A model generated the notes under the pieces. It did not search any database. It had not been told where the DNA came from and saw nothing but the letters and a program-made list of their open reading frames with translations. From contig NW_024704743.1 in NCBI RefSeq assembly GCF_018977255.1, positions 1,116,001 to 1,180,000 on the forward strand: a DNA stretch of 64,000 bases. Direction: 5' to 3'. How positions within the stretch are numbered: the first letter of the stretch is position 1; the number at the start of each line of letters is the position of its first letter. A program made the translations under genes and the position numbers. Below, one piece after another: positions 2,730 to 59,935 of this stretch. Source of the DNA: Callorhinchus milii. Its lineage: Eukaryota.

Positions 2730-3079
2730 CTGTACATGATGGAGTCGAACACGCTCCTCCCCTGCACGTTCAGCAGGTGACAGTAAAGAGCCGCGGCGGT
2801 GCCGCCGCTCAGCAGCAGCTCCACGTCGTTGGTCACCAGGCCCTGCAGGAAGCTGGCGGTGTCGCGGCCCCCGAGGCCCAGCAGCGCGCGGTGGGCCAGA
2901 GCGTAGCAGCGATAGCGGGGGGACGCGGCCTCGGGCTCCGGCCCCGCGGCGGCGGCGGCGGCGGCGGCGGAAGAGCGGCGGGCGGGTGAAGGCGGCGGCG
3001 GCGGCGGCATCAGCAGCAGTAGCAGCCGCCGCCGGTGCGCCGCCAACCCCGGGCCGCGCCTCAGCTGCAGCGGCAACAT
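2730..3079 (-). CDS. IBA57: IBA57 (mitochondrial Fe-S cluster assembly factor), coding exon 1
   Basis: ATG at 3079. An Arg-rich, acid-poor N-terminus resembles a mitochondrial transit peptide. It is followed by the GcvT/YgfZ-like segment RALLGLGGRDTASFLQGLVTND..LLNVQGRSVFDSIMY. Donor AG|GT at 2730/2729 (phase 2). Confidence 0.93.
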
Positions 3080-5602: not shown

Positions 5603-8600
5603 AAAAGGTATTCAAGATGTACAATGGCAAGAGGCAGTTAAAGTGAAAACTGTGATGAAACTGACCAATATTCTGCCCTCGAGCTGCTTCATAATGATGA
5701 GGCCTCCGAGCCTGGACCCTTTAACCCACCCCCACTCCCACCCGCCCGCCACCACACACACACACACACACACACTCGCACGCACATCCTCCGGGACAAG
5801 ATGAAGGAACCACTATTCATGTGTTACATGTGTTTGACACGGTTGTTGCTGGGATTGCTTAATCAGTCGGGCGGGTGTGAAACCCATCACCAAGTCAGAC
5901 TGAACGTTCCTCGTGCGTCCGTCACCCGCCCGTGGAAATTTTCCCCGCGTCTGGAATGAAATGCGCCCCCTCTCTCTCTCTCTCTCTCTCTCCCTGGAGG
6001 GATACACCCCGCTCACCTAATTCCAGTGAATAATAGGCACAGCTTGGTTAAAAAAAAAGGCCGGGGCTTAGAATATGTGCGTCAACCTGTTAAACTCACA
6101 CAACTTGCCATTGAGAGCAACTGTTTGGCAATCTTATTATGCAGTGTGGCGTAAGGAAACTTGCCTCAGGTTTCACCCCGTCGGGGAATTGAACCCAGGT
6201 CCTGCTCGCTACGGGACTCAGTGGGATGTAACTCCGAGCATTGGGGAGAAGGGAGAGGGAGGAAGAGAAGCCCAGTCGAAGACTAGACTTGCAGACACGT
6301 ATAGAGAGCGAGCGGGGGGGGGGTGGTGGTGCGGGGGTGGGAGAGAATCAAGGCAGGGGGTCTGAGGGAGGAATTTGCAGAGGTTAAGTTAGGTGAAGGT
6401 TAGGCCACCGAATAGTGTTAGTATGAAACAGGCACATGGGATCTGGTTTTAACATCTCACCGACTGCGGTGGTGGTGGTGGTGGTGGGGGTGTGGATGAG
6501 TGGGTGTAATATTTTGCCCAGAACACTCACAGTAGTGAGGTCTCCTTGTGCCCTTGCAATTGGAACCACAATAACCACCTCGATACAGCGGGTGAGCATC
6601 TCACAGTGCAACTGCTTCCTGGCCCAAAGCATTCGATACCAGTTTGGCTAAACCTGACCCGAGTTGGAACGCGAAGGTGGCTTTCCATCCCAACTTCAAG
6701 TCCCGTGTAAAAATGGATCAACAAACCAAACCCCTCAACGGATGTCAGAAAGAGACGCTCGGAAAAAAGGAAACAGAAAGACCAGGTTGGACGTAGTCAA
6801 TCATGCTTCCTGAGGCCTGAAATTCCACCTTATCTTAGCCTTTAGGATCGGCCGGGTGTCTGACACCCATCTCTGTCCTCGACAGTCTCCAAACCGACCA
6901 CCTGAGAGCTTCTCATCCGCACGGTTTCCGTTTTGTTTGGTCCAAGACCATACAACACAACATACAGTTTAACACAACATACAGTTTATACAGCACCCTT
7001 CACGTCGGGAGGACCTCTCAAAAGCGCTTCATAGTACTTGGTGGGCACCCGCGATGGGGGGGGGTGGTTGGGAGTCAAGGGGAACGGGGAGGGTAAAGGT
7101 AGAATACTTCCAGGTTGGAAGCACAGTCCAAGGTGCTTAACAATCCTGGTTTGGCATCTTTGGCAATGCAATTCGGAATCGCGCCCCCACTCCCCTCTGT
7201 ACCGGTCTCCAGCCCCCGGTTCCTGAGCCAGGAGGGGCCGCAGTGTCCCAGGGCACTCACGGCTGATGGCAGCACAGCCCGGCCCTGGCTCATCCATCGG
7301 CAGGAACTGGAAGGGCCGACCAGTCACTGGGGGCCGGGAATCCTCCCCCTCAGCTCCTGTTAACCCCACAGCCAAAGCCCCAACTAACTAACTAACGGGG
7401 AGGGTGGTCCTAGCTGGACAAGCAGCGGGAAAGCTTGGCCAGCACTCGAAGGGCAACAAAAAGCAGGGTCAAGGAGGTACAAAATGAAGATGTGGAGGAA
7501 TCGAGTGGAGTTGCTATGGATTTCCAGAGAAAAGAGTCGACTTCAGACCGAAACACCATTTTGTCTTGAGGCTCACGGTGGCCCGGAATTGTACACGGGA
7601 TTTAAATTCAGTCTTAATTTAGATTTTAGTCTTAATTTAGAAGCCATCCCTTTTTTTCAAGAACCAGGAGGGAGGTGGGGTGGGGCAGGGGTGGGGAATG
7701 GGGAAACGGTTTCCATATTAAGTACGAATTTCCTTAATTCTGTGCCATCTTAAACGTTAAGACATAATAATAATAATCATAATAATAATAATAATAAAGG
7801 GGCCATCAATATAAAACAGTCACAAATAGATCAAATAGGGGAGTTAGACGTAATTTCTTCACACAGAGAGTAGTGGGAATGTGGAACGAGGAGTAATTGA
7901 GGCAAATAGCACAGATGTATTGAAGGGGAAGCTCGATAGGTCCATGAGGGAGAAAGGAGGAGAAGGTTAGGCTTGAAGGCTTAGTTGAGGAAGGGCAGGA
8001 GGAGGCTCGTGTGGAGCATAAACACCGGCACAGACCAGTTGGGCCGAGTGGCCCGTTTCCGTGCTGTATATTCTAATGTATAATAATAATAATAATAATA
8101 CCACATCTCATCCAAAGGACGTTATGCCTGACAAGTGCAGGGCTCTCCCAGCGTTTGTGCCGGAGCATCAGCCTGGGACGAAGAGCTCGAAGCCTACGGG
8201 GGCGGCAGTACTTGAACCGGCAACGTCTGACTCACGCCGGCGCCCGGTTAACTAACACCAGGTGCAATTTCAGACTGACGCAAGTTGCTTTTTTTTTTAC
8301 ACACGCGCACGCGCACACAAGAGATCGAGAACCCGGCCGGTAAGCGCGACCCAGCGGAAAATACTCCGGGTCTTTTCCCACCGTAAATAAAGTACGGCAG
8401 TCGTTTCGGATGGCAGGAGAAGCTCGCTCCGACTATTGTTCGACCAGAGAAGTTGACGTCGGGGGGGAACCGAGTTCTCGATCGGCTTCAGGTTAAGGCA
8501 CGTTTGAGAAAGTTATTTTATTTTTTTTCATTTAATTTTCGCCCTTTCGAGTGCAAAGAGAAAAAAGCCTGTGGTTCTACTTGCTCTAAATCTATATGTA

Positions 8601-10631
8601 TGTATATATATTATATATACGTACGTATAACACAAACCCGGTCAAGCTCACAGACCCTGTCCCGATTTAGATCTGCGTTTGAAAAAGAAAATGAAACGGA
8701 ATAACACAACCAACGTGCGCCGCCAGCTGTCCAGTTTGGGCTGAGAGAAAATAACTTGCCTTTTTACGAGGCCGAAATGGTTCAACGAACCTCGCCGGTG
8801 ACTGCCGACAATCGTAGCGACCGAGCCCCGGCTCGTCCCTCGTCCCTTACGTTCCACAATCGGTGGCCGCGCTTTCAGCCACGGCGCCCCCCCCCCCCCA
8901 CCCCCACCCCCGAAACTCTGGAACGCTCTCCTCTCTATCCCTCGCCGGCTCTGGGGCCGCTGCCCTAGGTGGGGGGGATGGGGGGGGGAGGGGGCTGGAG
9001 GGGAGGCCCGGGCGCTGTTGTTGTTGTTGTTGTGTAGTTGGGAGGCAAGCGAGGCAACCGGGAACTTACTCCGGGAAGTTCCGGCTCTCTTCTCACTCTT
9101 TGTCTTACAAGTCCACCACGACCAGACCTCGGTTCGTGTGAACCATCTGAAAGATGGCAGCGAGCTCAACTCCTGCTCCCCCACCTTCCCCCCCACCCCA
9201 CACCCCACCTCCCAATTGGGGTTGGCTTAGTCTACGCGCCCAAGACCCCACATATGGGGCTCAGACCCACCTTCTGACCCCAGAGGTGAGAGTGACGCCA
9301 ACAGCGACCAAACAGAAGTTCAGGTCCTCGTCAAGCTTTGATCCCTTAGGATCCCTGGGAACTCTTAGGACCTTGGAGCTAAGGCTGCTTAGAAACCCAC
9401 GTAGAGAAGGGTGTGAGGATATAATAATAATAATAATAACCATAATAATATTAATCCTAGCATTTTTTTTATATAGCGCCTTATCACGTCGTTCACACTT
9501 ACAAATCGCTTCACTGTAAAGTGAATTGACAAGTGTATTTTCAGGCGAAACGTGGAGTGTGCGACCAAATTTATTGCTGGGGGGTGCGATTGTTGGCTAG
9601 GACACCGGGTGTGGGGCCGGGGGGGTGGGTGGGTGGGTGGGTGGGTGGGGGGGCTGGGAGGGAAGGGAGAAAAAGACGCCTTTGCTTTTCGAGAAGGGAC
9701 AGGAGGGAGAGCGAGAGAGGGAGGGAGGGAGGGAGGGAGGAGGAAGACAGGGGGTGGAGGGAAATTGAATCCAGTAGATAAAAACAGAGGAACATCCCAC
9801 CCCCCAACCACCCCACCACCGCCCTCCCACCCTCTCCAGCCTCGCGTAACGTGATGCCTGGAAGCTGGGGAGCAATGTAGTGTGTGATTAGTTTCCGATG
9901 CAGTCTTTCACAGCTCAGTCACCATTAAATCCGTCAGCTTTTAGAGGGGTGGGGGGTGGGGGGGGGGGTTCAATAGACCTTTTTCTCTCCCAACAGCGTT
10001 GACAAAGACAGGGCAATCCTGTGCGGCTTCAACTCAGCGACAGCGACCGAAGGATTGTGAGCCGTTGAAATGCTCCTCATTTTCTTCGCTGATGTGCTAA
10101 TTATCACCTGCGACAATACTGTATCACTTGCAAGTTCTTCCCCCCCCCCCACCCACCCACCGCCCCTTCCAACTTCCCCCACCCCCTCCACTTTCCTCTT
10201 TTTTTTTACCGCTGATTGAGCCAAATATATCCGAGAGAGAGAGAGAGAGAAAGCCTTAAACAAAGACAATTGTAAACTTTAGTTCCTGATAGGACAGAGG
10301 TCAAATAAATAATAATAATAATCATAATAATAATCCTTGCGTTCGACGTAGCGCCTTATCACGTCGTTGAGACGCCTCAAACGCTTCGGAGTAAGGTGAA
10401 TCGTCTGCGTATTTTGTGGGCGAAACGCGGGAGCCGATTGTGCACGGCAGCGTCCCCACAAACAGCCGTGGATTGATGTGACCAAATTATTATTATTATT
10501 ATTATTATTATTATTTGGTGGGGAGGGAGGGAGGGAGGGAGGGAGGGAGGGTGTGGGGGAAAGAGATTTTTATGATCAACTCCTACTGGGACAGACCTCG
10601 AATCCTCAGATCCTCGTAGGACAAACATGGT

Positions 10632-11936
10632 TCAGATCCACACTGATGGCTTCCCGTCCCCGGATTTGCTGCTGGAGCTCCCTTTGTCAGAGCCGGGTTT
10701 GGGTTTGGCTCCCTGCTTCTCCTGGGCTGCGTTGACCCGGTTCTGCTCCGCCACTGAGCCCCCAGAGCCTGGACTGCCCGCCCTGCATTTCTGCCCGTTC
10801 CCCCGGCTGTTGTAAGTCTGAAAGGCCACGTCCAGCCGTTCCTGTGCCTCCCTCAGGTGGCTGTGCAGCCTGGCCAGGTCTGGGGGCACATTGTCGTCCG
10901 GGCTGGTGCACGGAACTTCCTGAGCCACGTTGCCCAGGACTTGTTTGTGGGCCAGCAGGCCGTTGGGGACCTTGCTGCCCGTCACGTTGGGTTTGACCAC
11001 CATGTTGTATCCGGGCGGCGAGGCTGGGATGTTCCGAGGGAAAGGGTACGGGAAGGGGCGGGCGCTGGTCCTGCCTCGCCTCCTCCGGCTCCTGATCACG
11101 TCCCTGACCGTCCCCATACCCAGGTGGACCATCTCTCCCAGGTTGAGCAGGAGGCAGAGGCAGCTCACCACGTACATGACGATGAGAAAGACCGTCTTCT
11201 CTGTCGGTCGCGACACGAAGCAGTCCACGGTGTGGGGGCACGGCTGCCGGGTGCACACGTAGGAGGGGTGCACCTCAAAGCCGTACAGGAGGTACTGTCC
11301 CACTAGGAAGCCCACCTCAAACAGGGCCCTGCAGATCAACTGGAAGACGTACATCCTCATCAGTCCTTCCTGCCTGATTCTGCGCCTCCCATCGTGCCTC
11401 TGTGGCCTCCCCACTCCCCTCCCCTCCCTCTCCTTCTCCCTCGCCACCTCCTCGTACATCATGGGCTCCTCCTCGTCTTCTTCCTCCCCTTCCCCCGTCC
11501 TCTCCGGCCCGCGCAGGTTCTGCCAACGGACGCCAGGAGGCGCCCTCCTCTTCCTGAAGAACCTCAGCCTCCTCTCCATCTCCATCTCCTCTTCCTCCCG
11601 ATCCTCTTCCTCGGAGGAGGAAGTCCGAGCAACCTTGTGGATGGCGTAGCCCAGGTACATGACGGACGGGGTGGAGATGAGGATGATCTGGAAGACCCAG
11701 AACCTCACGTGGGAGAGAGGAGCGAAGGCATCGTAGCAGACGTTCTCACAACCCGGCTGCTTGGTGTTGCACACGAACTTGCTCTGCTCGTCCGAGTAAA
11801 TGGATTCCCCACCGACAGCCGTCAGCACGATACGAAAGACGATAAGCACCGAGAGCCAGATCTTGCCCACGAAGGTGGAGTGGTTGTGGATTTCTTCGAG
11901 AAGACGGGTTAGAAAGGCCCAGCTCATATTTGACAT
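10632..11936 (-). CDS. GJC2: Gap junction gamma-2 protein (connexin 47-like), single coding exon, 434 aa
   Basis: N-terminus [25 protein letters not shown]. Extracellular Cys motifs [12 protein letters not shown] and [13 protein letters not shown]-terminus [12 protein letters not shown]. Splice acceptor ttctcttccag at 11957. Lies next to IBA57, as GJC2 does in human. Confidence 0.93.
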
Positions 11937-21230: not shown

Positions 21231-24200
21231 AAGAATTCAGATTCACGGCATCACGTGACTGCGCTCAAATCGTACCGCACGGGGATAGCAATTCCTCGAC
21301 CGCGACCCCCCACCACCCCCCCACGAGCCCACCCCCCACCCCCCACCCACCGCCCCCCACATTACTCCATCCCGGCCCGTCCTGTCCTCAAACCAGACAC
21401 GATCAGTTTACAACTGAACATTGGCTCCATTTCCTTTACAAACCCAACCCTCCATCTTCAGTCGGGGCTAAACTTCAGGCAAGTTTCCTTACTCCACACT
21501 CACGCACTCACACGCACTCACACACACGCTCACACGCACTCACACACGCGCGCACACACTCACACGCACTCACACACACACTCACACGCACTCACCCACA
21601 CGCACACGCACTCACGCACACTCATGCGCACGCTCACGCCACTATTCACTTCGCAGTAAGTAGGAACCCGGTTGTTGGTCGATTGGCGGATCGCTTTCCT
21701 GGGGATAATAATCCCTCTCCCCCCGCCCCCACCCCCCCCCGAAAAAATGTGGTCGCTCAACCCACGGCTGTTTGTGGGGACGCCGCTGCGTGCAATTCGC
21801 TGCCCCCGTTTTGCACCACAAAGCGCACAGTCACTAAAGGTTACAGTCTGTCCTGTGAGGCGCCTTGAGACCATCTCAACAGTGTGACACGGCGCTGTGT
21901 CAAACGCAAAAATTATCACTAATTGTTATTACTTTTATAATATCGAAGCTCCGAGTTGAGGTTAGGGATGTTTTGGTTTGGCCCAACCGGGTGCCTGACA
22001 CGAGCGGAAACCCCTTCACCGCGATTAAGACGTACCCAGGGGGTAACTGCTGGAATCTAAGCGCCTAAAACTGAATAGTTTGCCATCGAAAGCGCTCTCC
22101 CCGTCGCTTGTCCAGCGACGACCACCCTACCCGCCAGGACTTTGGCTTGTAGGGTTAACAGGAGCTTGACTGGATGACGGGGGATAAATGTGTACTTGTT
22201 CGCATCCCTCCCTCTCTTTCTCACTCTCTCTCACTCTCTCTCGCTCTCTCTGGGTCTCTCCACTCACTCACTCACTCACTCACTCAGTTTCGCGAAAGGG
22301 CAGAAAAACATTTCTTCGAAACCCCCACTCCCTCGCTGACACCAGCGATTTTGCCGCTGCTGGTTGGTCTCCTAAGTCCTGCCTACGAAGAAATGCAGGA
22401 AAAATGTGACCTTAACGTAAGCAGTGCTCACAAAGCTCTCCGGGTTCGTCCCAAACCCCCGACAGGAGCACAATGTGACGATTGATTGGGCCTCTCGGAA
22501 GCACAGAAATAAAACAGTCGCGAAATCTCACTCTTGTCCCTTGTCTTGGCTCCCTTCAACGGGCCAATCTCGACAGAGGCGGGTGGGCTGCCCTCTCTGT
22601 TCCCAACCGCTCAAACCCTGGCCGGGGGTCTCAAAACCACAGCGGGTGTGAGTTGTGGTCCGTCTGGTGTCAACCGCGGCACCAACAATTCCTAAGACCA
22701 GGACGGACGGTGCAGTCAGACCCCATTATATCACAGGGACTCACTGGGTGGGGTGTCAGCCTGTCTCAGCGGGTAGCTCTCTCTCGCCTCTGAGTCAAGC
22801 CCCCACCCTCCCAACCCCACCCTACCCCCCCCCCCACACACACACTCCCCACTTCGGGACTTGGAATCCCACAGTCTAAGCTGACGCTCCATTGCAGCGC
22901 TGGGGGAGGTGTGTGTGTGTGTGTGTTGCAGTGTCGGAGACGCAGTCCTTCGATTGAGACGTTAAAGCCGAGGTTCGGGTGGATATTGGTCAAAGTGGTG
23001 GTGGGGGGGTGGTGGTGTGGGCTGGGGCTTGATCCCCCCCAACCTTCTGACTCAGAGGCGAGGGAGGGCTGCCCACTGAGCCAGGCTGACAGCTTGTCCA
23101 ACAGTTTGTCCAGTGAGTAGGACAGCGTTGGGGTTTTCAAGAGGAAATCAACTACGTTGTGAGACGGTGGCGGAGATGGGGTTTGGGGTTTGGGGTTTGG
23201 GGTGGGGGGAAGGGAAGGGAATGGAGATAGCAAGTGATGGTATGTAGCAAATAGGGTGGAGCTGGTGGGGGGGGGGGGGGTGTTGTTTCATTGAAGGTGC
23301 CGTCCTTTGAATAAGATATTATCCCAAGTTCCCGACTGTGCCCTGTACCCTCCTCGTCGTCCATGCCATCAGTCACCCCCCACCCCCCTTTCCCTCCCCT
23401 CTCTTCTCCCCCCCCCTTGACCTCAGCTCGGGTCCGAAATGCTGTACACTGTCCAGGACCTTGGGACGTCCCCCGACGTGAAAGGCGCTGTACAAATATA
23501 ACCTTGTTGTTGTTGTTGTTGTTGTTCAGGTAGACATTAAAGATTTTGAGGTGCTATTCAAGAAGAGAAGGGAGTTTTTCTCTCTTTCTCTCTCTGTCTC
23601 TCTCTGTCTCTCTCTCGCTCTTTCGCTCTCTCTCTCCCAGTGTCCTGGCCAACAATTTCCCCAAATGCTTGTGGGACATTGCTGCGCTGCCACATTTCAC
23701 CTACAAATATAGTCGCAGTAAACACTGTGAAGCGCCTTTGGACTGTCCTCCCTGTGCGAAAGGCGCTGCACCAATCACAAGGATTATTCATTTAATTATG
23801 ATTAATTTTCTGACTCCGAATTGGCAGCAATGGGTTCAGAGTTGGGACGTGGACCTCACCCAATCTGAGATGACACGTCATCGCGCTGCTGTGTGTGTGG
23901 GGTGGGGGGCGGGGGGGGGGAATGCTGCACTATCGAGAGATGCTGTCCCTCGGAGTAGATGTCAAACTGAGGTCCCGTCTGCCTATTATTAAGCGATAAT
24001 GACAATAATAATCCTTGCCGTTGATACAGCGCCTTATCACGGCTTCGAGACGTCTCAAAGCGCTTCCACGGGATAAAGCAAATTGACTGGATGTTTTGTG
24101 GGCGGAACGGGTGCGATGGGGCCGCACAAAAATACCCAGTCAGTCAGTTCGCTTGACAGTATATTCCGTGAGGCGCTTTGAGACGTCTCGACGACGTGAT

Positions 24201-35263: not shown

Positions 35264-36490
35264 TTAGAATCTGAAGCGATATCGGAACTGTACCTCCCGG
35301 GTGGGCTGCATGGCCCCAAAACCCCAACGCTTGCAGTCGATCTCGGGGATCTCCTCGTCGGGATTCACCAGCTCGATGTCAAAGAGGCTTAACATCAGGA
35401 AGATAAACTGCTTGAGCTCGTTCATGGCAAAGAACCTGCCGGGGCACATACTGACCCCGGACCCCCACGGCATGTTGTAATAGTTGACCTTCTGCCCGCC
35501 TTTGTAAAAGAGGGTCTTCTTGGTCCCGTCCGGGTTCAGGAAACGGTCGTACCTGAAGGTGCCGGGCTCCGGGTGGATCTCGGGGTTAATGTGGGCGGAG
35601 AGGTAAGGGAACAGAGCCAGTCGGTCGCCCTTCCTCAAAGCGTACTCCCTCCCGTCCGCCATCTTCAGCATCATGGCCTTGACCACGGAACGGATCAGGA
35701 CGGGGGCAGTCGTCAGCCGCAGGTTCTCATCGATGGCGCTGTCCAGAGTGGGCAACCCGAGCTGTATGTCCTTGGCCAGCTTGCCCAGATTGAGTTCAGT
35801 CCCAGGTTCCTGCCCCGACTCCCTCACCAACTGGTCCACCTCAGCCCGCACTGCGCGCAAGGCTTCGGGGTGCTTGAGCAGGAAGAGGAGCAGCCAGAAC
35901 GAGGAGGGTCCTGTGTTTCCCTGGGAAGCCCAGAGCAGAATAAACATGTATCTGTTCTGCATGATGTGGTCCACTCCATACTCGTCCATCTGCCGCTGAC
36001 GCTCTTCGATCCAGGAGCTGATATTCACCTTGGTGTACATCTTCTTGATTGAGAGCAAGTCCCAGAAAAAACTCTTGAGCCTCTTGGCTTGCAGCCACTG
36101 CTTGGGGGATTCTATGGAATAGGCCAGGATCGGGAAGAGCTGGTCGTACTTCCTGAACTGGGTGAAGAGCTCCTCCGAGCCTATAATGTCCGCCTCCTTG
36201 GCGGACTGCTCCCCCTGCTCGTCGGTTGCCTCCACCCCGAACAGGGCCAGGTAGCCGGCTCTGAACAACAGGTTGTAGGAGTACTCGAACAGCCCGGCCA
36301 CTTGCCATTCGCCCTGCGCCCCCTGGCCCACCTTGGAGAGCATCAGGTTCTGCAGGTGCTTCAGCATTGACTTGCTCAAGCCTGTCAACCCGTCTCCCAT
36401 CAGGTGCTTGTTGCTGAGAATTTTCAGGAGCTGGTTGTCGTTCTCCAAAGCGTGGTAGTTAAAGACAGTGGCCACTAGCTGTTTGGCGAA
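35264..36490 (-). CDS. CYP8B1: Sterol 12-alpha-hydroxylase CYP8B1; intronless here, 5' part missing in the assembly gap
   Basis: I-helix LWASQGNTGP, ExxR motif (ENLR), FRYDRF and heme motif PWGSGVSMCPGRFFA; ends RWGFGAMQP..RYRFRF. The frame stays open up to the Ns, so roughly 90-100 N-terminal residues are not visible. Confidence 0.93.
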   Translation of the reverse strand, partial: FAKQLVATVFNYHALENDNQLLKILSNKHLMGDGLTGLSKSMLKHLQNLMLSKVGQGAQGEWQVAGLFEYSYNLLFRAGYLALFGVEATDEQGEQSAKEADIIGSEELFTQFRKYDQLFPILAYSIESPKQWLQAKRLKSFFWDLLSIKKMYTKVNISSWIEERQRQMDEYGVDHIMQNRYMFILLWASQGNTGPSSFWLLLFLLKHPEALRAVRAEVDQLVRESGQEPGTELNLGKLAKDIQLGLPTLDSAIDENLRLTTAPVLIRSVVKAMMLKMADGREYALRKGDRLALFPYLSAHINPEIHPEPGTFRYDRFLNPDGTKKTLFYKGGQKVNYYNMPWGSGVSMCPGRFFAMNELKQFIFLMLSLFDIELVNPDEEIPEIDCKRWGFGAMQPTREVQFRYRFRF

Positions 36491-45695: not shown

Positions 45696-46811
45696 CTAAA
45701 CCACAGTCATCTCCACTTCAGAGTACAAGCCATAGTGCTGCTTGCTGGTTTCACTGCGTTCGGCTGCAGGTGCTGTGACCCCGACTTCTGCCTTGCACCC
45801 GCTCGCCCGCGACACCTTCATCAAGAAGTTCTTCAGGTGCCTCCTGAATCTCTCGTTCACGAAGGCGTAGAGGAGCGGATTGATGCAGCAGTGGGTGAAG
45901 GCCATGGACTCGGTCACTTGCATGGCGTAGTCCAGCCGCTTGCTGAACCGGCAGCCGGTGATCAGGCCCAGATCCTCCAGAGAGTGAAGGAGAAGCACGA
46001 TGTTGTAGGGGAACCACAGGACAAAGAAGATGATGACCAGGGCCACCACCAGCTTGAGGGCCTTGTCCTTCCTGAAGGACCTGGACCTGAGCAGGACCTG
46101 GGTGATGCGGGTGTGGAAGAAGATCATGGCGAGGAACGGGATGACGAACGCTATGACGTTGACCTGCAGCTTGACGGTGGTCTTCGAGATCAACTGCGGC
46201 TGGTCCCCGTAGTGCTCGAGGCAGGTCCAGCGTCCGTCCACCTTCTGCGACTCGCTGTAGAAGAGCTCGGGGCCCGAGAGGACGGCGGAGAACAGCCAGA
46301 CGGCGGCGCTCACGACTACGCTCTTCGGCACCGTGCTGAGGTTCTTCAGCGAGACGGTGTGGACGATCTGCAGGTACATGCCGAAGCTCATGCAGGTGAT
46401 GAAGAAGATGCTGCTGTAGAAGTTCACGCTGTACAGGGCGCTGACCACCTTGCACATGGGGCTCCCGAACACCCACTCGTGAGCCACGTACACAGCCCAG
46501 AAGGGGAGGGAGGCCGCAAACAGGAAGTCGGAGATGGCCAGGTTCAGTAGGTAGACGTCCGTCATGGTGGTGAGTTTGATGTACTTGATCAGCACCAGCC
46601 CCAGGAGGCTGTTCCCCAATGCCCCAAAGGTAAACACCAGGACGTAGAGCACGGGAAGGAAGACCTTCCCGAAGGCCCTCACCTCGTCCTTTGCGCACAC
46701 CAGGTAGGGAGAGAAGTCGTAGTCCGTGTAGTTGTAATCCTCCTCGGGGAAGGCTGAGCCGTTGAGCGGGCTGGCGGGAGGGCCGCCCAGAACCAGGCCG
46801 GTGTCTGCCAT
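45696..46811 (-). CDS. ACKR2: Atypical chemokine receptor 2 (D6-like), 371 aa, single coding exon
   Basis: Seven-TM chemokine-receptor motifs CAKDEVRAFGKVFLP, TDVYLLNLAISD, WFPYN and HCCINPLLYAF. DRYLAIV is replaced by GMYLQIV. Acceptor ccctctctcag at 46830 and ATG at 46811. Lies next to CYP8B1, as in human. Confidence 0.82.
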   Translation of the reverse strand: MADTGLVLGGPPASPLNGSAFPEEDYNYTDYDFSPYLVCAKDEVRAFGKVFLPVLYVLVFTFGALGNSLLGLVLIKYIKLTTMTDVYLLNLAISDFLFAASLPFWAVYVAHEWVFGSPMCKVVSALYSVNFYSSIFFITCMSFGMYLQIVHTVSLKNLSTVPKSVVVSAAVWLFSAVLSGPELFYSESQKVDGRWTCLEHYGDQPQLISKTTVKLQVNVIAFVIPFLAMIFFHTRITQVLLRSRSFRKDKALKLVVALVIIFFVLWFPYNIVLLLHSLEDLGLITGCRFSKRLDYAMQVTESMAFTHCCINPLLYAFVNERFRRHLKNFLMKVSRASGCKAEVGVTAPAAERSETSKQHYGLYSEVEMTVV

Positions 46812-50940: not shown

Positions 50941-51586
50941 AGTTACAAGGCTTCCTCCCCGCGGCTCAGATACTTGGAGGAGTGGGGTGGGGTGGGGTTG
51001 GGGGGGTTGGCGAGGGTTGGGGTGGGGGGGGTGTGTGGGTGGGGGGGAGGAGATAGGCCGGCGTGTAAGTGATTAGCAGATGCCTACGCACCCATTCTGT
51101 TCCACGTGAAGTCCTGGAGCTCAGTGGTTAGAGAGCTCGCCTCGCAAGCGAGAGTTTGGGTTCGATTCCCGGGGCAGGTCGGTCGGGGGGGGGGGGCGAA
51201 ACCTTACGTAAGTTTCCTTACTCCACACACGCGCCGCTGTTTGCCCAACGGTAAGTAGGAACCCGGTTGCTAGTCGATTATCGGGTCGCTTTCCCGGTGG
51301 GGGGGGGTAACGATTCCTTCAAAAATAATAATAATAATTTGTTCGCTGAATCCCACGACTGTTTGTGAGACACTGCTGCGCGCAATCGACTGCTGCATTT
51401 GCCCCCAAAATATCCAGTCAATTCGCTTTAACACTACAATACAATAAAATAATCCTCGCATTTGATATAGAGCCTTATCGGGTCTTCGAGACGTCTCAAA
51501 GCCCTTCACAGGATATACTGCCGAGCGAATCGACTGTGCATTTTGTGGGCGAGACAGCAGATTCTCCAAAAAGAAGCAGAGAAAAA

Positions 51587-51914
51587 AATAATAATAATAA
51601 TAATAATCCTTGCATTTGATATAGCGCTTTTCACGTCGGGAGGACGTCCCAAAGCGCTTCACAGAACACACTGTAAAGTGAATTGACTGTATATTTGTGG
51701 GCGAACGCAGCAGCCAATTGCGCACAGCAATGTCCCACAAACAGTCGTAGATTGAAAAATGACCAATTTATTATTGTTTTGTTTTTTTGGAGGATTATTA
51801 TTAGGCTCTGTGTGGAGTAAGGAAACTTGCCCAAGGTTTCGCCCTCTGCCTGGAATTGAACTCAGGTCTCTCGCTTGCAAAGCGAGTGCTCTAACCACTG
51901 AGCTACAGGACTCC
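51587..51914 (-). mobile_element. Young full-length tRNA-Ala-headed SINE
   Basis: Near-identical to 26331-26660. Confidence 0.9.
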
Positions 51915-56080: not shown

Positions 56081-56930
56081 AAATCATTTCAATAATTTCC
56101 CTCGTGTTTTCCCTGCCCCTCAACAAAAAAAATAGTGGGTAATTTAACAACAACTTGCACTTATGCGGCCCCCCTCACACAGCGTAGTGTCCCCGAGTGC
56201 TGAACGTCGCTGATAGCAATCGGAGTGAAGCGTTTCGAGACTTTGAACGTGTAAAATCACTTCTTTCTTTGCGCTGTGTTCTGTGAAGCGCAGACCTCTG
56301 AACAAAGTGTTAAAGGCTCTGTACCCAATGTAAGGATTATTATCGCATTATTATTATTATTCGCCGCATAGCATTTGAATTAACGACTTCCGCTTGTTAC
56401 AGCCCCGGATAATGGATAAGAAAAAACTTAATGGATAAGCTGGTTAATCAGTGACGTTCATCGCTTCGACTGCGAACACTCCATTAACAAGTCCACGGTA
56501 TCTCGTACGGCACTTAAGCCAAAGCGTTTAGCGCCGCGGGTCGTCTTCCCGAGGTGAAAGGCGCTTTGCAAATATAATTTTGTTGCTCGTTTGTTGCTTA
56601 AGAAAATCTAAACACAACTTTTTTTTTTCAAAGCATCATTTGCTGAGGCTTTTATTCACTGACAACAAATCAACAAGGTATGAGGACGAGGAGGAGGACG
56701 AGGAGGAGGACGAGGAGGAGGAGGAGGAGTGGGAGTCCCACGGAGGATTGGGGGGGGTTGGGGAGACAGTCTCACAGTGAGGATAGAAGACGAGACAGGA
56801 CTTGGGGTGCAGTGTTTGTTTGTTCATGGTAGTCAAGACTCTACTCTTGATCCCTCGGGAGGAGAGGAAGACATGTGTTGGGTCCAAAATGTGTCTTGTT
56901 GTCCATTGCTCTCAATGTTCTGGCTGTTGT

Positions 56931-57062
56931 TTACGGTTGTAGCGGCCTCCGTTTTCCACTTCGTCGTCGGCGGTGATGGCGGTGATGGCGGCGATGTCCT
57001 CGCTTTTTCCCAAGTTTCCGTCCCTTTCCTGATTTCCTCCTGTGGGAACGACCCCTCGCCAT
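56931..57062 (-). CDS. Protamine-like sperm nuclear basic protein, copy A (43 aa)
   Basis: MARGRSHRRKSGKGRKLGKKRGHRRHHRHHRRRRSGKRRPLQP*. Start context atcATGG, TATAAAAA at 57115-57122, AATAAA at 56651-56656. Confidence 0.75.
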   Translation of the reverse strand: MARGRSHRRKSGKGRKLGKKRGHRRHHRHHRRRRSGKRRPLQP

Positions 57063-57089
57063 GATTCAGCTTCAACCGTGTCTCTTGAC

Positions 57090-57260
57090 TGCTGTTTGAG
57101 GGAAACCTCTGACCTTTTTATACTGATGCCCGGGTTGGGGCGTCCACGCTCCCATTGTGATGTGGGGGCCATTTATTTGGTCAACCGTGACCTTATAAGG
57201 TGCTCGTCCCTGTCCAAGCTATCGCCCACGGTTACAATTCATGACCTTATAAGGCCAAGC
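57090..57260 (-). promoter_or_regulatory. Promoter of protamine-like copy A
   Basis: TATA box 32 nt upstream of an Inr-like gcAGTC (57090). TGACCTTATAAGG occurs twice (57188 and 57242). Confidence 0.65.
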
Positions 57261-58380
57261 CTTGACTTTTTTTTAACAACGATCCCGGCATTTGATACGG
57301 GCGCCTTATCCCGTCTTCGCGACGTCTCAAAGCGCTTCACAGAATGTACCGTAAAGCGAATCGACTTTGTGTTTTGTGGGCGAAACGCGGCGGCCGGTTG
57401 CGCACAGCAGCGTCCCCCCCACCCCCCCAAACAGCCGTGCATTGAGCGACCAAATTATTATTATTATTATTATTTTTTGAAGGGATTAGTACGCCCAGAA
57501 AAACGGATCCGCCAATCGAATAACAACCGGGTTCCGAATTACTGCTCGGTAAACAGAGGTGTGTGGAGTAAGGAAACCTGCCCAACATTTCCCCCCCTGC
57601 CCGGGGATCGAACCCGGGTCTCTCGGTTGCTTGCAGGACACTGCTCGGTGCGATTGGCTACCAACGTTTCGCCCACAAAATATAGTCAAACATACTCTGA
57701 AGCACTTTGAGACCTCTCAACCACACGATAAGGCGCTTTTATCAAACACAATAATTATTATATCGTTCCCCCGAAGGGTCACAGTCACCACACTAAATAA
57801 TAATAAAGGGTGGTGCAAACAGATCCAGTAACAGAATTAGATAGGTACTTGAAAAGAAAACATTTACAGGGGTACGGGGAAAGAGCGGGGGAGTGGGACT
57901 GATTGGGTAGATCTTCCAAAGAGCCGACATAGGCACATTGGCTCAAATGGCCTCCTGTACCTCCCTTGTTTAGCCCAGTTAATGCAGAAGAAATTCCACC
58001 ACATTGATTTATTACCGGCGATCATTAACATCTCATTAACAAATCTACAGTATCTCATCTGGTGTTTAAGTCAAATGTCTTAAGAAACTGTAAACACACA
58101 TTGTTTTTTCAAGCATCATTTGCTGAGGCTTTTATTCACTGACAACAAATCAACAAGGTATGAGGAGGAGTAGTGGACACGAGGGTCCCACGGAGGATTG
58201 GGGGGGGTTGGGGAGACAGTCTCACAGTGAGGATAGAAGACGAGACAGGACTTGGGGTGCAGTGTTTGTTTGTTCATGGTAGTCAAGACTCTACTCTTGA
58301 TCCCTCGGGAGGAGAGGAAGACATGTGTTGGGTCCAAAATGTGTCTTGTTGTCCATTGCTCTCAATGTTCTGGCTGTTGT

Positions 58381-58512
58381 TTACGGTTGTAGCGGCCTCC
58401 GTTTCCCACTTCGTCGTCGGCGGTGATGGCGGTGATGGCGGCGATGTCCTCGCTTTTTCCCAAGTTTCCGTCCCTTTCCTGATTTCCTCCTGTGGGAACG
58501 ACCCCTCGCCAT
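58381..58512 (-). CDS. Protamine-like sperm nuclear basic protein, copy B (43 aa, same protein as A)
   Basis: Same ORF with one synonymous change (Gly GGA to GGG). TATAAAAAA at 58563-58571, AATAAA at 58131-58136. Confidence 0.75.
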   Translation of the reverse strand: MARGRSHRRKSGKGRKLGKKRGHRRHHRHHRRRRSGKRRPLQP

Positions 58513-58539
58513 GATTCAGCTTCAACCGTGTCTCTTGAC

Positions 58540-58665
58540 TGCCGGTGGCGTTGTGGAGCAGCTTTTTTATACCGATGTGTGACCCGTCCGCTTCGCTTTG
58601 TGATGCATTGGGGCCATTGTGCGTCAGTCAGTCATGACCCGCGTCATGCCCTGACCCAATAGCAA
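58540..58665 (-). promoter_or_regulatory. Promoter of protamine-like copy B
   Basis: TATA box 31 nt upstream of gcAGTC (58540). CCAAT at 58607-58611 and half-CRE TGACG at 58622 and 58642. Confidence 0.65.
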
Positions 58666-58969
58666 AGTGCGGAAATATTTGCCAAATATTGAGGGGCGTT
58701 TGATAAATTTTATGGAAAGTCGCAGAGAAATTTGGTGAATTTCTGCCGAAAATGATGACGGGTTGATCGGTGCTACTGACAAGACTCATTTTGTGAAATG
58801 ACCCGGATCGATATATCAGTAGATTTCCTGACCGTGTCGATATGTTTAAGATATTAAAAATTGTTAATTTTGAATAGTACAGCACTTACCGAGAGCTCAG
58901 TTTAGGCCGGGCGCCGAGCAAACGGACGGCATTAGAGTGTTTTATTATTATAATGTTATAATACACCAT

Positions 58970-59935
58970 TTATATTAACTATTTGGACTCGGGGATCGAA
59001 GGTACATTTTCAAAACTTGCGGATGACACCAAATTGGAGGGGGCGAGGAGGACTGCAACAAATTACAAGACATCAACAAACTTCCTGAGTGGCCATTTAA
59101 TTGGCAAACGAATTTCAATGTAGATAAGCGTGAGGTGGTACATTTTTGGTAGGAGGAAGAAGGAGATCACATACTGCCCGGAAAATAAGAATCTAAGCGG
59201 GATAGAGGAGCAAAGGGTAATCTAGGGGTACAGATACACAAATCGCTAAAGGTAGCGACGCAGGTTAATAAGGCCATATAACAAAGCAAACCAAGTGTTG
59301 GGTTCATTTCTAGCGGGATAGAAATGTGGGGGTTCATTTCTAGAAGAATAGAAATGAAATGCAGGGAAGTTATGCTAAACGTATACTTGGTTAGACCACA
59401 CTTGGAGCACTGTGTATAGTTCTGGTCCCCATATTATATAGAAAGGATATAGAGGCACTGAGGAAGGTGCAAAGGAGGTTTACAAGGATGCTTTGGAACT
59501 GCAAGGTCATACCTATCAGGAAAAGCTGAACAACCTTGGACTCTTTCCTCTTGAACAGAGGTGGGTAAGGGGTGGGTGACCTAATAGAGGTCATTAAAAA
59601 TACGAAAGGTTTTGATAGGGTAGACATAGGGAAGATGTTTCCTCCTGTGGGGCAGACCAAAACCAGAAGCCATCAATGCAAAATAGTCAAAATAGGTAAG
59701 TCAGAAGAAACATCTTTACATCTTCAGTGGTGGGTATGTGGAACTCGCTACCACAAGGAGTAATTGAGGCAAGCAGCATAGATGTTTACGGGGTAGCGAG
59801 ATACGTACATAAGGGAGAAGGGAATAGAAGGTTAGGCTTGAAGGCTTAGTTGAGGAAGGGCAGGAGGGGGCTCATGTGGAGCGTAAACACCGGCATAGAA
59901 TGGCCTGTTTCTGTGCTGCATATTCTGTGTAATTC
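58970..59935 (+). mobile_element. CR1 LINE 3' part (RT C-terminus and 3' UTR), degenerate
   Basis: AAACTTGCGGATGACACCAAATTG (KxADDTKL), GTTAGACCACACTTGGAG (VRPHLE) and GDLIEVIK. The 3' UTR is shared with 7830-8075 and 34035-34200. Confidence 0.85.

What the first reader, a model, noticed from the sequence alone, without database searches (positions are those of the whole stretch)
56630..58665. Hidden tandem pair of intronless protamine-like genes encoding a 43-aa Arg/Lys/His-rich protein
Seen: two minus-strand units 1450 bp apart, each running TATA box, Inr-like CAGT about 31 nt later, short 5' UTR, atcATGG, 132-nt ORF, 250-280-nt 3' UTR, AATAAA and a GT-rich downstream tract. The peptide MARGRSHRRKSGKGRKLGKKRGHRRHHRHHRRRRSGKRRPLQP has 15 Arg, 6 Lys, 6 His and no Asp, Glu or Cys. 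The ORF track misses it (<60 aa) and shows only the wrong frames. Known: small, TATA-driven, usually intronless fish genes with MAR- starts, Arg clusters and RS phosphorylation sites are typical of protamines. Inference: this is a sperm nuclear basic protein locus, possibly unannotated. The RRHHRHH His cluster could bind Zn2+. A cationic antimicrobial peptide is an alternative, but there is no signal peptide.
Basis: partly seen in the sequence, partly recalled or inferred. Interest (0 to 1): 0.88.

Follow-up and report, generated by a model that had tools for sequence, protein, structure and literature searches.

The report
Hidden protamine-like gene family, cartilaginous fish
The two tiny genes are real members of an overlooked family of eight single-exon genes for small, very basic, histidine-rich proteins that most likely pack DNA in this cartilaginous fish's sperm, though expression in testis has not been shown.

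Summary
Observation confirmed. Two minus-strand units 1450 bp apart each carry a TATA box, a Kozak ATG, a 43-codon ORF and AATAAA, and encode the same protein. They belong to a family of 8 intact genes plus 1 fragment, all on contig C2 of a 992-Mb genome. The protein is under constraint. The basic-residue count is kept (simulation P≤0.006), 43 of 56 exchanges involving a basic residue are Arg/Lys/His swaps (about 20% expected), and ORF indels keep frame while UTR indels do not. Promoters pair A~G and B~F, but gene bodies pair A=B and F=G, which points to block duplication followed by gene conversion. All 8 promoters carry a Sox-type ACAAT near the TATA box. Best reading: a sperm nuclear basic protein (0.8), either a protamine (about 0.55) or a spermatid transition-type protein (about 0.25). 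Against a plain 'protamine' label: Arg is only 29-35%, Pfam protamine models do not hit, no homolog was found, and the locus lies outside the conserved SOCS1-RMI2 interval. Expression, tissue and Zn binding are untested.

The parts
58381..58512 (-). Copy A ORF, 43 aa, R/K/H-rich, Cys-free, His cluster at residues 24-30
58565..58571 (-). Copy A TATA box, 59 nt before the ATG; present 51-60 nt before the ATG in 8 of 8 intact copies
58616..58646 (-). Copy A proximal promoter: ACAATGG (Sox-type, 58620) and two TGACG half-CRE-like words (58646, 58626); factor labels are inferred
58513..58541 (-). Copy A predicted start site (CAGT) and 5' UTR; start site not mapped
   Evidence: inference
58131..58380 (-). 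Copy A 3' UTR ending in the conserved block TTGTTGATTTGTT..GTGAATAAAA; AATAAA at 58136-58131
56931..57062 (-). Copy B ORF, same 43-aa protein, one synonymous difference from copy A
57116..57122 (-). Copy B TATA box, 60 nt before the ATG
57154..57202 (-). Copy B proximal promoter: CACCTTATAAGGTCA (57202-57188) and ACAATGG (57158); promoter type shared with paralog F
56651..56930 (-). Copy B 3' UTR with an expanded TCC/TCG repeat; AATAAA at 56656-56651
58079..58542 (-). Tract shared with copy B (57092-56597; 92% over 496 columns including the repeat gap); probable gene-conversion tract
57274..57936 (.). Spacer made of the window's common interspersed repeat and a further high-copy repeat piece

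Best explanation
A family of short, single-exon, TATA-driven genes for a sperm nuclear basic protein of about 5.3 kDa and net charge near +21. Inferred mechanism: the genes are switched on in haploid spermatids through Sox-type (SOX30-like) and CRE-like promoter elements. The disordered protein enters the nucleus, its Arg/Lys patches neutralise DNA phosphates as histones are displaced, and Ser in RS/KS sites is phosphorylated to control deposition. With no Cys it cannot form disulfides, so the His cluster may add pH-dependent charge or Zn2+ bridges. Several copies kept alike by gene conversion supply the large dose needed. Shown here: gene anatomy, copy number, constraint on basic composition, mosaic ancestry, conserved promoter words. 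Inferred: tissue, timing, DNA binding, phosphorylation, metal binding. Within this reading, mature-sperm protamine is about 0.55 and spermatid intermediate protein about 0.25.
For: Eight intact copies keep TATA, Kozak ATG, open frame and AATAAA although the ORFs are only 58-79% identical between subfamilies. None has D, E or C; R+K+H is 51-65%. Random mutation of copy A to the observed distance keeps the basic count in 0, 0.04, 0.08 and 0.6% of 5000 runs (versus H, C, D, F). 43 of 56 exchanges that involve a basic residue are basic-to-basic, against about 20% expected (pairs not independent). ORF indels are net multiples of 3 in 10 of 10 pairwise alignments; 3' UTR indels include non-multiples in 6 of 6. 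ACAAT lies within 60 nt upstream of TATAAAA in 8 of 8 gene promoters versus 2 of 26 other TATAAAA sites in the sequence scanned (paralogs not independent). ACAAT is the SOX30 ChIP motif in mouse testis (PMC8136829, passages), and SOX30 is listed in a catshark testis proteome (PMC13052469, passage). TATA and CRE/half-CRE elements are described in mouse protamine promoters (PMC2690471, passages). The size fits 3-10 kDa (PMC13251019). Basic anchoring patches plus Ser sites fit the vertebrate protamine plan (PMC8799248), and His up to 20% occurs in protamine 2 (PMC5175393). GRAVY is -2.6 with no apolar run over 2 residues in 7 of 8 copies, so there is no signal peptide.
Against: Arg is 29-35% and the longest Arg run is 2-4, against up to 70-80% Arg quoted for protamines. 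No Pfam protamine model matches (the PF00260 genome search rang nowhere, controls included). No homolog was found in any protein search. The genes are not in the SOCS1-RMI2 interval. pN/pS below 1 is not specific to this frame: sense+2, anti1 and anti2 also give 0.4-0.9. ACAAT is common to all Sox factors and CACCTTATAAGGTCA is not enriched genome-wide (6 hits versus 5 for the control), so the promoter does not prove testis use.
Confidence: 0.8

Rival explanations
1. A leaderless cationic host-defence peptide, released without the secretory route and acting on microbial membranes or DNA, with His giving pH or metal dependence.
For: Small, charge about +21, His-rich, multicopy and diverging quickly. 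His-rich cationic defence peptides exist (recalled, no call).
Against: No signal or pro-region; the hydrophobic share is 0.09-0.14 in 7 of 8 copies, so no amphipathic face is possible. The TATA box sits 51-60 nt before the ATG, which leaves no room for a leader exon.
Confidence: 0.05
2. A somatic basic microprotein: a chromatin or nucleolar condenser in another terminally differentiating cell, or a His-rich structural or metal-binding component of skin or egg case.
For: Strong TATA single-exon genes in several copies also typify terminal-differentiation structural genes (general knowledge). ACAAT binds any Sox factor. Tissue is untested.
Against: No Cys, almost no aromatic residues and no Gly/Tyr repeats for cross-linking, and no export signal. 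Selection keeps charge rather than sequence, which fits DNA neutralisation best.
Confidence: 0.1
3. A non-coding or silent low-copy duplicated unit whose basic ORF is incidental, or whose real product is read in another frame.
For: No transcript is shown. Other frames also give pN/pS under 1, and antisense frame a1 is open in 8 of 8 copies. The 3' UTR end is as conserved as the ORF.
Against: Frame-keeping indels are confined to the ATG-stop interval; the 5' and 3' UTRs have 1-, 2-, 4-, 5- and 8-nt gaps. Sense+1 and sense+2 have stops in copy C. All signals lie on the strand of the basic ORF. No Rfam match is near threshold (2 hits at E 0.8-0.9, outside the units). Only 9 places occur in 992 Mb.
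Confidence: 0.05

Closest known systems
Vertebrate protamines (P-type sperm nuclear basic proteins): teleost protamines, avian galline, mammalian PRM1
   Same: 3-10 kDa, very basic, no acidic residues, MAR- start, RS sites, TATA promoter with CRE-like words. Intronless multicopy genes as in trout and chicken (recalled, no call).
   Different: Arg only 29-35%, with 10-16% Lys and 12-19% His; short Arg runs; no PF00260 match; not in the SOCS1-RMI2 interval.
Mammalian protamine 2 (His-rich, Zn-binding)
   Same: His content in the same range (up to 20% in Prm2, PMC5175393).
   Different: No Cys, whereas Prm2 binds Zn through Cys in that review; no precursor extension; no intron; different locus.
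Chondrichthyan sperm proteins: ratfish Hydrolagus colliei R1-R3 and dogfish scylliorhinines Z1-Z3/S4 with intermediates S1/S2 (names and properties recalled; primary papers not held)
   Same: Same animal group. A Cys-free, Lys-containing protamine of about 48 residues (R3) is recalled for ratfish; I recall that PF08188 (48 positions) is built on it.
   Different: PF08188 does not score any of 5 family proteins, and its 7 genome hits are under the cut-off with no gene anatomy. The known sequences could not be fetched, so homology is untested beyond that profile.
Transition proteins (TNP1/TNP2) and protamine-like (PL) proteins
   Same: Mixed Arg+Lys composition, less Arg than protamines (PMC5175393; PMC11607694). 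Insect SNBPs with Lys and His exist (PMC12216123).
   Different: Shorter than 50 aa in 7 of 8 copies; intronless and multicopy, whereas TNP genes are single-copy with one intron; no winged-helix domain; no Pfam hit.

Membership tests
Protamine (P-type SNBP) | Small, 3-10 kDa | tested here: met
   5.3-6.3 kDa; range from PMC13251019
Protamine (P-type SNBP) | Highly Arg-rich with Arg clusters | tested here: inconclusive
   Arg 29-35%, longest run 4 in A/B, 2-3 in the others; the low end of the class
Protamine (P-type SNBP) | Ser/Thr phosphorylation sites beside basic patches | tested here: met
   1-3 RS/SR dipeptides in 8 of 8 copies; phosphorylation itself not tested
Protamine (P-type SNBP) | Expressed only in post-meiotic spermatids | not testable with these tools
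   Runs come without tissue labels and as contigs only
Protamine (P-type SNBP) | Major protein of mature sperm nuclei that condenses DNA | not testable with these tools
   Needs mass spectrometry and a DNA-condensation assay
Amniote PRM1/PRM2/TNP2 cluster | Match to Pfam Protamine_P1 (PF00260) or related models | tested here: not met
   No protamine family for 5 of 5 proteins at E up to 10
Amniote PRM1/PRM2/TNP2 cluster | Position between SOCS1 and RMI2 (order recalled) | tested here: not met
   RMI2 and a SOCS1-like SH2 gene lie 31 kb apart on C16; in 100 kb scanned there, 4 basic ORFs passed the filter and none has a TATA box; the unit has no BLASTN hit. The family is on C2.
Pfam Protamine_3 (PF08188) | Score of at least 25 bits | tested here: not met
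   No hit for 5 of 5 proteins; 0 of 15 genome candidates over the cut-off
Protamine-like (PL, histone H1-derived) | Winged-helix domain or a long precursor | tested here: not met
   43-51 aa, ATG 51-60 nt after the TATA box, no domain
Transition/intermediate spermatid proteins | Present in elongating spermatids, absent from mature sperm | not testable with these tools
   Needs staged-cyst proteomics
Secreted antimicrobial peptide | Signal peptide and amphipathic mature peptide | tested here: not met
   GRAVY -1.7 to -2.6, longest apolar run 2-4
Transposable or dispersed repeat | High copy number, transposon coding remnants | tested here: not met
   The same 9 places are returned by three different DNA queries (9 of 9 candidates scored each time, counts are lower bounds)

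The most novel reading that the evidence does not exclude
An independently arisen protamine lineage of chimaeras, unrelated by locus or sequence to amniote and teleost protamines, in which a His cluster replaces cysteine disulfides as a reversible Zn2+- or pH-controlled cross-link of sperm chromatin. It is wired to the same SOX30/CRE spermatid programme and kept uniform by gene conversion under divergent promoters.
Probability: 0.2. Interest if true: 0.7.

Novelty: new variant of a known kind. Interest (0 to 1): 0.45.

Why it matters
Whether vertebrate protamines arose once or many times is an old question, and fish SNBP types are sporadically distributed (PMC11607694, passage). As far as I recall, chondrichthyan sperm proteins are known mainly from protein chemistry and a few cDNAs. 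A mapped gene family with promoters and a position (between an ACKR-like receptor gene and a HIG1-domain gene, away from the intact SOCS1-RMI2 interval) makes orthology testable by synteny across sharks, rays and chimaeras. It also gives a Cys-free, His-clustered model for testing metal- or pH-based sperm chromatin locking, and shows that a whole family of short low-complexity genes seems to be missed by annotation. If it proves to be the known ratfish Cys-free protamine's counterpart, it is a useful annotation, not a surprise.

Tried and rejected
Expression: no RNA holder was listed on record (9 of 12 rows hold part of the stretch, kinds are guesses, no tissue given). I laid 4 of the 12 runs on window 57750-59000, copy A only; all are contigs. 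X1 covers the gene and also 330 nt upstream of the TATA box, so it looks DNA-like. X2 (58316-58526) and X3 (58394-58554) have short contigs in the unit, but they were found by it, and X3 starts 13 nt upstream of the CAGT. None of this counts for or against expression. X6 has one 1122-nt contig running unbroken over copy A's promoter and body with 6 other letters, and shows no separate contig for copy B's body, so the reads do not confirm copy B independently; X1 and X2 carry copy B's synonymous letter at 58405. Homolog searches: none with copy A, H or C (only lengths of 23-90 aa searched). The two alignment searches, one of them for longer proteins, timed out, so longer precursor forms in that collection were not examined. 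A profile of 5 proteins against 1.84 billion representatives gave 0 hits at E≤0.001. The ESM Atlas gave only hits under 0.8. Low complexity weakens all of these blanks. dN/dS (0.10-0.70 between non-identical proteins) was rejected as frame-specific proof. The CACCTTATAAGGTCA scan gave 6 hits: 4 at family genes and 2 (L029, L031) with no gene seen in the 900 nt read downstream. The ACAAT-TATA pattern gave 163 hits versus 78 for the control, too common to find new genes. PF08188 hits L032-L038 and protein hit L025 are chance. Assembly artefact for copy B was considered and judged unlikely, because its promoter matches paralog F's, 1.8 Mb away. A splice-acceptor reading of the CAG at the start of the shared tract was judged unlikely because a TATA box lies 30 nt upstream. 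Pfam was run on 150 of 368 flanking ORFs (window 46.9-64 kb and the next 30 kb); the 216 around the other copies and 2 more were not scanned. No structure prediction was run, since the peptide is expected to be disordered.

Full report
Observation. The minus strand holds two units exactly as described. The ORFs at 58512-58381 (A) and 57062-56931 (B) encode the same 43 residues (15 R, 6 K, 6 H, no D/E/C) and differ by one synonymous base. Each has TATAAAA 59-60 nt before a Kozak ATG, CAGT 30-31 nt after the TATA, and AATAAA 244 or 274 nt after the stop. Of 376 ATG ORFs of 25 aa or more in the window, they are the two richest in R+K. Near-identity begins at the CAGT and ends shortly after the polyA signal; the promoters and flanks differ.

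Setting. The genome has 992 Mb in 1762 contigs. The window carries a connexin, a cytochrome P450 and a 7TM receptor ORF, and a HIG1-domain exon lies about 10 kb beyond copy A. From recalled human gene order these are GJC2-, CYP8B1-, ACKR2- and HIGD1A-like, so the pair sits between the last two. That the animal is a cartilaginous fish, probably a chimaera, rests on two earlier scan notes (not checked by me) and on a genome size close to the roughly 910 Mb given for elephant shark (PMC3466250).

A family, not just a pair. Three DNA queries return the same 9 places, all on C2. Eight are intact: A and B; C at 2.49 Mb (51 aa); D and E, an inverted pair at 2.92 Mb (45 aa); G and F, a tandem pair at 2.98 Mb (43 aa); and H at 82.8 Mb (43 aa). 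The ninth, at 110.3 Mb, keeps only the 3' UTR and flank. Every intact copy has TATA, Kozak ATG, an open basic frame with a His cluster and the same polyA block. Copies carry promoter and downstream flank, so they spread as DNA, not as retrocopies.

Constraint. ORF identity between subfamilies is 58-79%, yet no copy has D, E, C or an internal stop. When copy A is mutated at random to the observed distance, it keeps as many basic residues as the paralog in at most 0.6% of 5000 runs for each of four comparisons. Of 87 amino-acid differences in six pairs, 56 involve a basic residue and 43 of these are R/K/H swaps, against about 20% expected (pairs share ancestry). ORF indels are net multiples of three in 10 of 10 alignments, while 3' UTR indels include other lengths in 6 of 6. 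dN/dS is under 1, but so is pN/pS in three of the five other frames, so I do not rely on it. The frame is fixed by the ATG, the indels and the stops that copy C has in both other sense frames. Selection keeps charge rather than sequence, as expected of a non-specific nucleic-acid neutraliser.

Mosaic history. In the 28 nt from the TATA box, B matches F at 93% but A at only 57%, while A matches G (and D/E) at 86%. Further upstream, A is closest to G (64% versus 44-53%) and B to F (62% versus 52-57%). The ORFs pair the other way: A-B 99%, F-G 99%, A-F 79%. In both tandem pairs the A/G-type promoter lies upstream. The simplest account is an old two-gene block that duplicated, followed by conversion of the transcribed bodies within each pair. 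This also makes an assembly artefact for B unlikely, though reads did not confirm B.

Promoter. ACAAT lies within 60 nt upstream of the TATA box in 8 of 8 genes and at 2 of 26 other TATAAAA sites in the sequence scanned; CTTATAAGG occurs in 6 of 8, and A and G have TGAC words instead. ACAAT is the top SOX30 motif in mouse testis but is shared by all Sox proteins (PMC8136829, passages). CRE and half-CRE elements are described for mouse protamine promoters (PMC2690471, passages). This fits a spermatid gene and does not prove it.

Mechanism, and what is inferred. A disordered 5.3-kDa peptide of charge about +21, rising to about +24 at pH 6, with no apolar stretch, made from several homogenised TATA genes, is best read as a sperm nuclear basic protein (0.8). 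It would neutralise and condense DNA as histones leave, with RS/KS serines as phospho-switches, as described for PRM1 (PMC8799248, passages). Tissue, DNA binding, phosphorylation and Zn binding are all inferred. Arg at 29-35% with short runs is low for a protamine and leaves a transition-type role open (PMC5175393, passages).

Comparison with known families. It works like a protamine, but membership of a named family fails where I could test it. No Pfam protamine model hits. No homolog appears in the protein collections, and 0 of 5 distinct proteins are held there exactly (1 of 3 control ORFs was). The SOCS1-RMI2 linkage that frames the amniote cluster (recalled) is present on C16, with no TATA-driven basic ORF in the 100 kb scanned; a gene split by an early intron could be missed. 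One weak lead: two of the seven sub-threshold PF08188 hits place G-F-(L/I) at profile positions 38-40, and copy C has GFL at 41-43. The family may therefore be a diverged counterpart of the Cys-free ratfish protamine that I recall underlies that profile; this is untested.

Literature seen. Ten full-text searches listed no paper describing these genes, but the library lacks most subscription journals, where the chondrichthyan sperm-protein work appeared. I saw only its titles in reference lists. Read as passages: PMC13251019, PMC11607694, PMC8136829, PMC13052469, PMC12216123, PMC2690471, PMC8799248, PMC5175393, and PMC3466250 (abstract and passages; its supplements were unreadable, and could bear on testis expression). 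Of PMC2112839 I saw a reference-list passage only.

Verdict. [quoted passage not shown] It is a new variant of a known kind, interest 0.45.

Noticed in passing
L009:4859-5014 (-), C2 2.49 Mb: Copy C lost the usual stop and has a 13-residue apolar tail (51 aa); it is the most divergent intact member.
   Followed up: partly
L010:3901-4879 and 7791-8756: Copies D and E form a 980-bp inverted duplication (96%) with identical ORFs; a second 1-kb inverted duplication (94%) lies just beyond.
   Followed up: partly
L015:5047-5302 (-), C2 110.3 Mb: Fragment with 3' UTR and flank only. The ORF is replaced by repeat-like sequence, and a GATGTGGT-type repeat like that upstream of copies C, D, E and H lies further 5'.
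   Followed up: partly
window 58110-58100 and the same place in all copies: An A-rich run about 20 nt after AATAAA is shared by all copies. It may be the cleavage site or the trace of an old poly(A) tail if the founder gene was a retrocopy.
   Followed up: no
window 58131-58160 and 56651-56680: The U/G-rich block just before AATAAA is nearly invariant in 9 of 9 places, more than the ORF; a candidate translational-delay element.
   Followed up: no
window 57188-57202 and about 57243-57257: The promoter word CCTTATAAGG is palindromic and ends in an AGGTCA nuclear-receptor-type half-site (label recalled); it is present twice in copies B and F.
   Followed up: partly
window 10632-11936, 35264-36400, 45696-46811 (all -), start near 3079 (-): Long single ORFs for a connexin, a cytochrome P450 and a 7TM receptor, and an IBA57-like first exon (recalled likeness; no Pfam hit).
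   Followed up: partly
window-wide, e.g. 24007-24066, 51584-51794: A 60-240-nt interspersed repeat (SINE-like) occurs at least 18 times in the window and beside most family copies.
   Followed up: no
L075:6556-7176 (-) and L069, C16: A SOCS1-like SH2 gene 31 kb from RMI2, the linkage that frames the amniote protamine cluster; the SOCS-box family search did not list it.
   Followed up: yes
L018:1699-2133 (+): Exon with a weak DUF4618 match (E 1.6e-6, under the cut-off) about 27 kb beyond copy A.
   Followed up: no
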